DNA of 64,000 nt, from assembly GCF_003018255.1 (NCBI RefSeq), contig NZ_CP027440.1; one strand, written 5' to 3'. This document shows, piece after piece, positions 45,101 through 48,100 of this stretch. Numbering within the stretch: position 1 is the stretch's first letter; the number at the start of each line of letters is the position of its first letter. This DNA is from Escherichia coli. Its GTDB lineage: Bacteria; Pseudomonadota; Gammaproteobacteria; Enterobacterales; Enterobacteriaceae. A program made the position numbers.

Positions 45101-48100
45101 GTATGCATGCTGGGTGGGGAAAGTATGAAGGAAAAGAAGACTGCCGCGCCGTTTGTCGTCACATTTATCTTCATTGGCTATGCAAGTCGTAATACAAGGT
45201 GGGACAAAACAGAGACACATAAGGTCTCACAAAGGTCTGCAAGGCCTCACATGTATTGAGATGTTAATAAAATGTAGACTTGTAATTTGGATATAAATGG
45301 TAGAGAAAACCTTTCCCCAAAATAAAAACGAACGTCAATGAAATCAAACGGTTGAATAAAGTTGATTTTGGCTAATAAAAAGACAATAAAATAATTTTTA
45401 TCATTAAATATCAATGAATTGAACTTAATGTTTTTATATACTGTTACGCCATATGGGCTGGACTGAAGCCGCAGACCTGATTGTTAAAGGTATGGAAGGC
45501 GCAATCAACGCCAAGACTGTAACCTATGACTTCGAACGTCTGATGGAAGGCGCTAAACTGCTGAAATGCAGCGAGTTTGGTGATGCGATCATCAAGAACA
45601 TGTAATCTCTACATGTGTTAAATATTGAAACGGGCGTATAACACGCCCGTTGTTTTATTTATGTGGATATTATTAATAGCATGTCGAGCATATTTATATG
45701 AAGCCCATTACTTGAGTCCATATGGGCATATTTTTATAATACAACTATTATGCAAACATTTATTTGGTATTTCGCTTTCTCCAGGAGGACACTCTTGACT
45801 GCTTTTGAGTAAACTCCATAAATCCTTGTTAAATGGTGCGATGTTATAAATAGTAATAGGGTATTCTTTATCCTTAAGGATAATACCAGACTTAACCGGT
45901 GTAAATATACTTCCAGGAGGGAGAAATATAGTAGATTGATACCAGATGATCATTTTCATATCACCCCATATGGCTGAAAAAGATATGCCGCATGTAGGTT
46001 GAATTAACGTGTCAATTACTATCCACTTCATTTGTTATGTCTTATCCCACGGTATTTAATATAGTTCATTAGGATGTTCATTTCTTGATTTTGCATATGA
46101 GTATATTATCCCCTCAAAAATATTAATTAAAAATTAAAACCGTTGCCTATATAAAACAAAATTTAAAGCAAGAAATCTCAATAGATATTAAACAAAATGA
46201 TATTTAGTGAAAACAATAAATTATTCACTTCGTTTTAGATTTGTTTAGCTATAATGTTATACATTCAAATGACTGAACATCATGTAATTAAAACATAGCC
46301 TTTATGCTACTTTGTGCCAATTTGCTAAATATTATGGTTGCATTTTTATATAACGATAATAATGAATATAAGCATGACATGAGAATAAGGTTTCAATTTT
46401 TGAGTTATATAGGAATGGTTAAACCCGTTCCTGACTAAAATACATATAATCGGATGATGACTAAACCAAAACACATGTGCGTTAAGTATTGAAACGGGCG
46501 TATGGCACGCCCGTTGGTTTTATAAATATGTTAACCGTTATAAAATAACGTATAGAAAGTCAAGTGATCACATTTCAAATATCAAGTTGATAGTATTGGC
46601 CTGGTGATTATTTATGGGTGGCAATAAAAAGACAGTATTTATCATCCATAGGGATAGTCTCTGCACTTTTATTTCCATTATGCTAATGTCTTACTGAATT
46701 ATGAAGCATTTTTTAAGCATCCAACTTTAGCTAGATTAATGGTTTATTATTTTCTACATCTTCAATATATAAAAGCGTATTATCAATGGCGTAGTAACTG
46801 CGTTTGTTATGATTAACATCAGTAACCCACCGGAAAACGCCCGCGTCTGCCAGTGTTGAACAGTACTCCCGAAATGTAGATTTTCCGGAAATATGAAGCA
46901 ATGCGGCCTCTTTTATTTTAGCAGGGTTCTTTTTCGTACTAACTTTTAACAGGTTCCTGGTTCCTCTTAATAACAAAACCGTGTCATCGTGAGTAATAAT
47001 TCTGATGTTATCCGTAGCCAGATAATAAATGTAATGTGCAACACGGTGATGTTTTAATTCTGAATAAAACCAGGAGAAGTTTTGCTCTTTTCTCACTTGC
47101 TCAAACATCTTTTGAAAAACAACGACCTGATCCATCAGGATAATAACCTCTTGTTAGTTGTGAGACTGCGTAGTGTGCACGATCGGTTTTACCACTTCAA
47201 TCTGGTCTGTCCTTTGGCTGTGATATGTACAAAGTGTGAAAGGGGGATTACCTGAATTCTCCCGGTGAGCATTTTGCAACGGACCAGCTCCGGTACAAAA
47301 GCTGTTGTGGGTTCAGATTATAAGATTCTGTCTAAGGGGCGGGATAAAGGTGAAATTAGGGGGCATGAAAGATGACTTTATAACCTTGCTCACCCCAGTG
47401 TTGTAAAAGTTCGTTTTGCCTTCTCGTTGGTGCCATGCCTGTCCAGACAATCAATGTTTGCGTCGGGAACAGTTCCGGGCGCGGCGATTCAATGGGATCA
47501 GCAAGAACAGAAATGTGCCATCCTGACAATGATAAACGCCATGCTTCCAGCCACAATCGTGCTCTCTCTTCAACATTCCACGCCATCAGAATGGCTTCTT
47601 TACCGGGCTTACGGCGCATTTCGAAAAGTGAGGCTGCTGCGTATTCAATTAATGCGCCGTCAAACATACTGCTCATAATGCGGGAGGTGTTGTGATCAAG
47701 CACGAGACGCTGGCGAACAGGAAGGTAAACATGATTAATCAATTGATCTACTGGGTACTCTCGACCCAGTGAAATAATTCTCGCGCGTAGTTTGGCAGGA
47801 TTAGCCATACGAAGAATTGACATCATCTCTTCTTGCAGGCGACTCCAGTCATCTTCCGTATCCTGGCTGGTGGTTTCCAGTAATGCTTTAACTTTGCCTA
47901 CAGGAACGCCATTACTTATCCAACGCTTGATCTCTTCGATGCGTTGTATGTCTTCTTCATCAAAGAGTCGGTGTCCGCCTTCACTGCGCTGTGGTTTTAA
48001 CAAACCGTAGCGGCGTTGCCAGGCCCGGAGAGTGACAGGATTAATCCCGCAACGTTCAGCAACATCACCAATGCTGTAATAAGCCACAATTCCTCCTTGC

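What the first reader, a model, noticed from the sequence alone, without database searches (positions are those of the whole stretch)
45440..45665. Prophage right junction lies within the 3' end of icd
A 165-bp stretch encoding the last ~55 residues of isocitrate dehydrogenase, with its stop and terminator hairpin, lies immediately after the b region with no icd gene body upstream. This is the pattern left by phages that integrate into icd and supply a replacement 3' end at the other junction (phage 21 and e14 use this site). The complete icd would then lie just left of the window beside int.
Basis: partly seen in the sequence, partly recalled or inferred. Interest (0 to 1): 0.4.

Follow-up and report, generated by a model that had tools for sequence, protein, structure and literature searches.

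The report
Phage 21-type prophage junction in icd
This is the ordinary right-hand junction (attR) of a phage-21-type lambdoid prophage inserted in the E. coli isocitrate dehydrogenase gene, where the host's displaced gene tail sits as a pseudogene; it is a textbook arrangement found in about a third of complete E. coli genomes.

Summary
Window 45441-45605 encodes Icd residues 363-416 plus the stop codon. A terminator hairpin follows at 45629-45651, and no icd body lies anywhere in the window. The fragment is one copy of a 217-bp repeat (45442-45658).

It is the attR of a phage-21-type lambdoid prophage:
- Xis is 78/78 identical to phage 21 Xis, and the 66 Int codons in the window are 66/66 identical to phage 21 Int.
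- The arm-type dodecamer CTTTCCCCAAAA lies 130 bp left of the homology, as in phage 21.
- A rebuilt attP is contiguous in 24 free phage genomes, phage 21 among them.
- A rebuilt empty site is intact in about 3030 of 5426 complete E. coli genomes, one at 100% identity.
- The right flank (iraM, ycgX, bluR, bluF) matches K-12 downstream of the icdC pseudogene.

The window's own left flank cannot be read.

A linkage test shows that the window copy travels with the host and the attL copy with the phage. The crossover falls within TGTTACGCCATATGGG (45442-45457). All 11 coding differences between the two copies are synonymous. Already known; low interest.

The parts
1..198 (-). 5' end of the prophage integrase gene: the first 66 codons, which by analogy with lambda Int form the arm-binding N-terminal domain. 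The rest of int lies left of the window.
   Evidence: Translation is identical to residues 1-66 of phage 21 Int and of the relative's Int. The relative's annotation places int at window -944..198.
188..424 (-). Excisionase gene (xis), phage 21 type.
   Evidence: 78/78 identical to phage 21 Xis; annotated as excisionase in relatives.
45311..45322 (+). Arm-type integrase-binding dodecamer CTTTCCCCAAAA (P arm).
   Evidence: It is the only match to YYTTCCCCAAAA in the 64-kb window. It lies 130 bp left of the icd homology, the same spacing as in phage 21 attP (L003 1589 versus 1719). The phage 21 record annotates this consensus for the three P' copies.
45342..45421 (+). A+T-rich P-arm stretch holding two IHF-consensus matches (45342-45354 and 45409-45421). 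These are candidate bending sites, not shown to bind IHF.
   Evidence: Two of only seven WATCAANNNNTTR matches in the whole window fall here. The assignment is an inference.
45442..45457 (+). Core / crossover interval: the 16-mer TGTTACGCCATATGGG shared by attL, attR, attB and some attP alleles. It contains the palindrome CCATATGG.
   Evidence: The phage arm and the host icd body diverge left of 45442, and the first attL/attR difference is at 45458. Phage 2E9 attP carries the same allele. The linkage test places the exchange left of 45569.
45441..45605 (+). icd' pseudogene (equivalent of K-12 icdC): codons 363-416 plus the stop. This is the host's original 3' end, displaced by integration.
   Evidence: It is annotated as a partial 'isocitrate/isopropylmalate family dehydrogenase' pseudogene in relatives and as icdC in K-12. 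It shows 0 differences from the icd 3' end of empty-site strain DETEC-S792.
45629..45661 (+). Native icd intrinsic terminator (hairpin plus T run). It lies inside the duplicated segment.
   Evidence: The 50 bp at 45609-45658 are identical in the attL and attR copies. The same element is annotated as a terminator in phage 21.
45442..45658 (+). Full 217-bp direct repeat shared with attL (the phage-borne icd 3' end plus terminator).
   Evidence: 205/217 identical to the attL copy of the relative JNE23-011.
45659..46031 (.). Host flank resumes here, with iraM at 45708-46031 (- strand), followed by ycgX, bluR and bluF.
   Evidence: There are 0 differences over 1200 bp from the empty-site genome, and the gene order is the same as in K-12.

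Best explanation
Window 45442-45658 is the B' half of attR of a phage-21-type lambdoid prophage. The prophage occupies the window from position 1 (inside int) to 45441.

The free phage carries, next to int, its own copy of the last 53 codons of icd plus the icd terminator. Phage 21-type Int, bound to YYTTCCCCAAAA arm sites and probably helped by IHF, exchanges strands with the chromosome inside the 16 bp TGTTACGCCATATGGG. This sits at the upstream edge of the homology, at icd codons 363-368.

Integration therefore joins the host icd body to the phage-borne tail and terminator at attL, so the lysogen keeps a working icd. It leaves the host's original tail and terminator, with no gene body, at attR beside iraM. 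In this phage/host pair the swap changes no amino acid. Int plus Xis recombination between the two 16-mers would restore the native icd exactly.

Shown here: the anatomy, the identities, the rebuilt attP and attB, and the phage or host linkage of each copy. Inferred: the position of the strand exchange within the 16-mer, the IHF sites, and that the window's own genome has icd left of int.
For: - Icd C-terminus, stop and terminator are present.
- No other icd sequence lies in the window.
- Xis is 100% and the Int N-terminus 100% identical to phage 21; the relative's Int is 377/380.
- The arm dodecamer has the same spacing as in phage 21.
- A rebuilt attP (window P arm + attL copy + P' arm + int) is contiguous over at least 80% of its length in 24 phage genomes. 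These include 3W and 4A7 (98.1%) and phage 21, whose record annotates the ICDH-like pseudogene, the terminator, P1P2P3, int and xis.
- A rebuilt attB (icd body + window copy + iraM side) is uninterrupted in about 3030 genomes, one at 100.0%.
- The window copy plus 1200 bp of flank shows 0 differences from that empty site.
- Linkage test between two lysogens with identical phage arms. At attL the icd body differs at 11/364 positions, the attL copy at 0/217 and P'+int at 0/500. At attR the P arm differs at 0/494, the attR copy at 8/217 and the host flank at 23/430.
- All 11 coding differences between the copies are synonymous, including a TCA/AGC serine switch.
- K-12 has the same layout with e14 and icdC.
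- Literature: e14 sits in icd and its excision restores icd with the icdC alleles (PMC6379469; bioRxiv 10.64898/2026.06.14.732165). [quoted passage not shown]
Against: - The attL side lies outside the window, and the window's own genome is not among the 5426 complete genomes. The icd-int junction is therefore taken from relatives.
- Host and phage allele pools of the 217-bp segment are mosaic. Phage 2E9 and phage 21 copies differ from the window copy by only 4 and 6 nt. JCKP02's attL copy differs from JNE23's at 7 sites although its phage arm is identical. Allele similarity alone cannot assign origin, and some homologous exchange inside the repeat has clearly occurred.
- The exact cleavage positions were not determined here, and the primary papers on the 21/e14 core could not be read.
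- The genome counts come from separate searches and were not cross-tabulated genome by genome.
Confidence: 0.95

Rival explanations
1. The junction belongs to an e14-type element rather than a phage 21-type prophage. Both use the same attB.
For: The layout is the same as K-12 e14 (icd ... prophage ... icdC, iraM). e14 and 21 are reported to share attB (title of Wang et al. 1997, cited).
Against: Int is 99% identical to phage 21 Int but only 60% to e14 IntE, and Xis is 100% phage 21. The P arm and dodecamer match phage 21 attP, whereas the K-12 e14 arms are unrelated in sequence. The prophage is a roughly 46-kb full lambdoid, not a 15-kb remnant.
Confidence: 0.01
2. The crossover lies at the downstream end of the repeat, in the identical 50-bp terminator region. 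On this reading the window fragment is the phage-borne copy, and the attL icd is wholly native.
For: The longest perfectly identical block between the two copies is 45609-45658. Some phage attP copies (2E9, phage 21) resemble the window copy closely (4-6 nt differences).
Against: Between lysogens with identical phage arms, the attR copy differs at 45569-45572, 45575 and 45608, together with the host flank. The attL copy stays identical while the icd body diverges. The window copy shows 0 differences from an empty-site genome over 217 + 1200 bp. For e14, excision is reported to place the icdC alleles into icd.
Confidence: 0.02
3. The fragment is a decayed remnant of an icd duplication or deletion unrelated to site-specific recombination, or an assembly artefact.
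For: It is an isolated 3' gene fragment without a body.
Against: Its left boundary coincides to the base with the start of the icd homology in free phage attP. The same junction occurs in 1461 complete genomes. Joining it to the icd body rebuilds an empty site found intact in thousands of genomes. The sequence shows no decay: 0 differences from a functional allele.
Confidence: 0.01
4. The fragment is not inert. The in-frame ATG at 45453 (Met366) gives a 50-aa ORF ending at the native stop and terminator, and this could be expressed as a small Icd C-terminal peptide or as a short RNA.
For: An intact 50-aa ORF lies at 45453-45605. A weak promoter-like match lies at 45368-45395 (9/12), and a terminator lies downstream.
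Against: Promoter-like matches in the region are no more frequent than in shuffles (5 found versus 6.1 expected). No Shine-Dalgarno sequence precedes 45453 (read from the sequence). The phage 21 record calls its copy an unexpressed pseudogene. The intact reading frame is explained by recent displacement from a functional gene (0 differences).
Confidence: 0.02

Closest known systems
Phage 21 attP / prophage attR in icd (Escherichia phage 21, OL657228)
   Same: The Xis is identical (78/78). Int is 99% identical in the relative and 66/66 in the window. Both have the ICDH-like 165-bp segment with terminator, the YYTTCCCCAAAA arm sites at the same spacing, and the same attB in icd.
   Different: The rest of the prophage is a different lambdoid mosaic. 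The best attP matches are phages 3W and 4A7 of genus Bievrevirus at 98.1%, against 94.8% for phage 21. It has different b-region cargo, a DLP12-like nin module and an I'-'J deletion. The core allele is TTAC rather than phage 21's CTGC, but TTAC also occurs in phage 2E9.
e14 cryptic prophage and icdC pseudogene (b4519) of E. coli K-12
   Same: The same attB, and the same outcome: icd completed by a phage-borne tail at attL, with a 165-bp icd' pseudogene at attR followed by iraM, ymgK, ymgL, ycgX and bluR.
   Different: The integrase differs (60% identity) and the arms are unrelated. The e14 swap changes Icd residues: D versus E, and E versus K or D, at the variable positions (PMC6379469). Here the two tails encode the same 53 residues.
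Lambda-type Campbell integration into the 3' end of a gene or tRNA, with a phage-borne replacement (for example DLP12 at argU)
   Same: The general mechanism is shared. A tyrosine integrase with arm-type and core-type sites uses an attP that duplicates the target's 3' end, so the gene stays intact (PMC6379469; general knowledge).
   Different: The target is a protein-coding housekeeping gene, and the duplicated segment is long (217 bp including the terminator). The crossover sits at its extreme upstream edge.

Membership tests
Phage 21-type prophage attR in icd | An icd 3'-end fragment with no gene body, directly followed by the normal downstream host genes (iraM and onward). | tested here: met
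   The flank shows 0 differences from an empty-site genome over 1200 bp.
Phage 21-type prophage attR in icd | Phage 21-type Int and Xis at the opposite end of the prophage. | tested here: met
   Xis is 78/78. The Int N-terminal 66 codons in the window are identical to phage 21. The remainder of int lies outside the window; it is 377/380 in a relative.
Phage 21-type prophage attR in icd | Arm-type dodecamers YYTTCCCCAAAA flanking the icd homology: one in the P arm and three in the P' arm. | tested here: met
   The P-arm copy lies at 45311-45322 with the same 130-bp spacing as in phage 21. The three P' copies lie outside the window but are present at attL of the relative.
Phage 21-type prophage attR in icd | A complete icd, ending in a phage-linked 3' segment, next to int at attL. 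| not testable with these tools
   This lies left of window position 1, and the window's own genome is not in the collection. The feature is met in relatives that are 100% identical at both ends. The icd-int junction occurs in 1676 genomes, against 1678 with this int gene.
Phage 21-type prophage attR in icd | Joining the prophage ends rebuilds an attP found in free phage, and joining the host flanks rebuilds an empty attB. | tested here: met
   The attP is contiguous in 24 phage genomes. The attB is intact in about 3030 genomes, one at 100% identity.
Phage 21-type prophage attR in icd | Int/Xis-dependent excision at the core, regenerating attB and attP. | not testable with these tools
   This needs induction and junction PCR. 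Sequence evidence only brackets the exchange to 45442-45457.
e14 element | IntE/XisE-type recombinase and e14 arms. | tested here: not met
   Int is 60% identical to IntE. The sequences flanking the repeat are unrelated to e14's.

The most novel reading that the evidence does not exclude
The stranded icd tail may not be silent. It keeps an intact 50-codon frame from Met366, its native terminator and a weak upstream promoter-like site, so in lysogens it could yield a small Icd C-terminal peptide or a short RNA with some effect on Icd or on the prophage. A second possibility is that the 217-bp repeat is an active channel of allele exchange between phage and host icd. Mosaic copies were seen here, but that exchange is, from my memory of Wang, Whittam and Selander 1997, already described.
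Probability: 0.02. Interest if true: 0.35.

Novelty: already known. Interest (0 to 1): 0.08.

Why it matters
Little is new. The result fixes the right boundary of the prophage to the base (45441/45442). It identifies the integration module as phage 21's. It also explains why the lysogen keeps a working icd.

Practical consequences:
- Annotation pipelines will flag a partial dehydrogenase pseudogene here, and this should be read as an att site rather than as gene decay.
- Typing schemes that sequence icd should remember that the last roughly 160 bp of icd in such lysogens are phage-derived. In this pair that means 11 synonymous changes.
- Excision would swap those alleles back.

The site is occupied by a 21-type element in roughly 30% of complete E. 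coli genomes.

Tried and rejected
- I tried to read the primary att-site papers: Wang et al. 1997 (PMC179457), Hill et al. 1989 (PMC210168) and Mehta et al. 2004 (PMC331406). None is held. Two literature searches returned nothing.
- I tried to find the window's own genome through its unique I'-'J deletion junction. None of the 5426 complete genomes has it, so the left flank could not be read directly.
- I asked whether both att copies carrying TTAC, where phages 3W and 21 have CTGC, pointed to an odd crossover or to gene conversion. It does not: free phage 2E9 carries TTAC in its attP.
- I asked whether the sRNA svsR of the NC-SV prophage, which sits at the same att site, overlaps this junction. 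It lies in cI. Rfam finds no RNA family at the junction.
- I rejected e14 identity, a downstream crossover, and chance or rearrangement origins (see the rival explanations).
- Allele similarity as a way to tell the host copy from the phage copy was abandoned once the alleles proved mosaic. A linkage test replaced it.

Full report
**1. The observation**

Window 45441-45605 (+ strand) translates to 54 residues and a stop. These align end to end with residues 363-416 of solved E. coli isocitrate dehydrogenase (E 9.6e-30) and with the C-terminal end of Pfam Iso_dh.

A nine-pair G+C-rich hairpin at 45629-45651, followed by GTTTTATTTA, is picked up as terminator-like. It folds at -20.1 kcal/mol, z = -3.98 against shuffles.

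Searching the window with a full-length icd, as protein and as DNA, finds only this fragment. Upstream are tail-fibre genes and then cargo ORFs (DUF2971, DUF4236, GIY-YIG-like, DUF3800), in the position of the lambda b region. Downstream are iraM (45708-46031, -), ycgX, bluR and bluF.

**2. What it is**

In E. coli K-12 the same host genes follow the annotated pseudogene icdC. That pseudogene marks the right end of cryptic prophage e14, whose left end lies inside icd. The window has the same architecture, but with a different and much larger prophage.

The window starts inside the prophage integrase gene. Positions 1-198 (- strand) encode the first 66 residues of Int, and 188-424 (- strand) encode Xis. 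Xis is 78/78 identical to phage 21 Xis. The 66 Int residues are identical to phage 21 Int. The complete Int of a relative that is 100% identical to window 1-1500 is 377/380 identical to phage 21 Int, but only 60% identical to e14 IntE.

**3. The other junction**

Two complete genomes (JNE23-011 and JNE112863) are 100% identical to the window over both 44700-46100 and 1-1500. In JNE23-011 a complete 1251-bp icd ends 113 bp from the end of int, about 1.06 kb left of the point that corresponds to window position 1. Strains 07-4299 and JCKP02 show the same arrangement.

Across 5426 complete E. coli genomes:
- the 21-type int gene is found in 1678;
- an icd-int junction of this type is found in 1676;
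- a 21-type attR junction is found in 1461.

These totals come from separate searches and were not cross-tabulated.

The window's own genome is not in the collection: its unique tail-gene deletion junction matches none of the genomes. The statement that icd lies just left of the window therefore rests on relatives and is very probable, not shown.

**4. Anatomy of the repeat**

Aligning the relative's attL with the window shows a 217-bp direct repeat at window 45442-45658, with 12 mismatches. It covers icd codons 363-416 (from the second base of codon 363), the stop, and the whole terminator. The last 50 bp are identical in the two copies.

To the left of 45442 the window carries phage sequence, and attL carries the icd body. 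To the right of 45658 the window carries host flank, and attL carries three tandem copies of YYTTCCCCAAAA followed by int.

The window has one exact copy of that dodecamer at 45311-45322. It is the only copy in 64 kb, and it lies 130 bp left of the homology, exactly as in phage 21. The GenBank record of phage 21 annotates the same parts in the same order: an ICDH-like pseudogene, a terminator, 'attP ... P1P2P3; consensus YYTTCCCCAAAA', int and xis.

Two of the seven IHF-consensus matches in the whole window lie between the dodecamer and the repeat. I take them as candidate bending sites; this is an inference only.

**5. Reconstructions**

Joining the window's P arm, the attL copy, the P' arm and int gives a sequence that is contiguous in 24 free phage genomes. 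These include 3W and 4A7 (98.1%) and phage 21 (94.8%).

Joining the icd body to the window copy and its iraM flank gives a sequence that is uninterrupted in about 3030 of 5426 genomes. One of them, DETEC-S792, matches at 100.0%. The two ends of the prophage are therefore the products of an attP x attB exchange.

**6. Which copy is whose, and where the exchange happened**

Allele similarity alone is not decisive, because the 217-bp segment is mosaic across phages and hosts. The attP copies of phages 2E9 and 21 differ from the window copy by only 4 and 6 nt, and K-12 icdC resembles the attL allele. I therefore compared lysogens that carry the same phage in different hosts.

| JNE23-011 vs 07-4299 | Segment | Differences |
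|---|---|---|
| attL | icd body | 11/364 |
| attL | attL copy of the repeat | 0/217 |
| attL | P' arm + int | 0/500 |
| attR | P arm | 0/494 |
| attR | attR copy of the repeat | 8/217 |
| attR | host flank | 23/430 |

(attL figures, attR figures.) The last difference in the icd body lies 41 bp before the core.

The attL copy therefore travels with the phage and the attR copy with the host, and the exchange lies left of 45569. The window copy plus 1200 bp of flank shows no difference from the empty-site genome.

Within this lineage, the phage arm ends at 45441 and the first phage-specific base in attL corresponds to 45458. This brackets the exchange to TGTTACGCCATATGGG (45442-45457), which contains the palindrome CCATATGG.

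An apparent anomaly was that both att copies carry TTAC where phages 3W and 21 have CTGC. It is resolved by phage 2E9, whose attP has TTAC.

For e14, published work states that excision restores icd with the icdC alleles (PMC6379469; bioRxiv 10.64898/2026.06.14.732165). This agrees with an upstream crossover.

**7. Consequence for the host**

All 11 nucleotide differences between the two copies inside the coding homology are synonymous. They include a three-base TCA/AGC serine switch. The phage-borne tail thus encodes exactly the same 53 residues as the native one.

The lysogen's Icd is unchanged, and the phage copy has clearly been kept under protein-level constraint. In K-12 with e14, by contrast, the two tails differ in amino acids.

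The stranded tail in the window is a pseudogene by position. It has no gene body and no ribosome-binding site before its first ATG (45453). No promoter signal exceeds chance.

**8. Comparison with what is known, and verdict**

This is the classical icd attachment site used by phage 21 and e14. The fragment corresponds to K-12 icdC, and PGAP already annotates it as a partial dehydrogenase pseudogene in relatives. [quoted passage not shown]

The element is 21-type rather than e14-type, and the first 198 bp of int lie inside the window.

Novelty: already known. Interest: low.

**9. Seen in passing**

- The prophage carries an in-frame fusion of the start of tail-assembly gene I to the last ~420 codons of tip gene J (34675-36132). 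It lacks 2.6 kb that relatives have, so it probably cannot make infectious particles, although its int, xis and att sites look intact.
- Its nin region holds a DLP12-like emrE / serine-recombinase / PEBP / AraC module.
- A Ser/Thr kinase at 4493-5539 and a DUF2971 protein at 40466-41269 match PADLOC defence or candidate-defence models.
- JCKP02's attL copy differs at 7 sites from that of other lysogens although its phage arm is identical. This indicates homologous exchange inside the repeat.

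Noticed in passing
window 34675-36132 (+); junction overlap 34845-34870: An in-frame fusion ORF joins the N-terminus of lambda tail-assembly protein I to the C-terminal ~420 residues of tip protein J. About 2.6 kb present in relative JCKP02 is missing here. None of 5426 complete E. coli genomes has this junction. The prophage is probably tail-defective while keeping int, xis and att.
   Followed up: partly
window 9443-13737: The nin region differs from relative JCKP02. It carries an SMR transporter (emrE-like, 9702-10088), a 508-aa large serine recombinase (10343-11869), a PEBP-family protein (12334-12885) and an AraC regulator (12895-13692). From memory this resembles the DLP12 emrE-ybcK-ybcL-ybcM module.
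   Followed up: partly
window 4493-5994 (-): A eukaryotic-type Ser/Thr kinase (348 aa) lies beside the repressor region and matches the PADLOC models mad6 and PD-T4-6. It overlaps a 153-aa RuvC-like ORF (phrog_3875). This is a likely prophage-encoded exclusion or defence gene pair.
   Followed up: partly
window 40466-44972: The b-region cargo next to attR consists of four ORFs: a DUF2971 protein matching PADLOC candidate system PDC-S31 (E 1.3e-20), a DUF4236 protein, a 209-aa ORF with a weak GIY-YIG match, and a DUF3800 protein. All are of unknown function.
   Followed up: partly
L014 (JCKP02) 338-554 versus L001 (JNE23-011) 3779-3995: The attL icd copy of JCKP02 differs at 7 sites from that of JNE23-011 and 07-4299, although the adjacent P' arm and int are identical. 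The 217-bp repeat is mosaic among phages and hosts, which implies homologous exchange or gene conversion inside the repeat.
   Followed up: partly
window 40121-40319 (+) and 63952-64000 (+): There are two Rfam matches above the gathering threshold. IS009 (203 bits) overlaps the 3' part of the tail-fibre assembly gene (39778-40362). sRNA C0299 is cut off by the right end of the window.
   Followed up: no
E. coli genome collection: The icd attachment site is interrupted in roughly 44% of complete E. coli genomes, and a 21-type int sits beside icd in about 31%. Several genomes also carry an IS200C insertion within the stretch matched by the rebuilt empty site (icd 3' end to iraM).
   Followed up: partly
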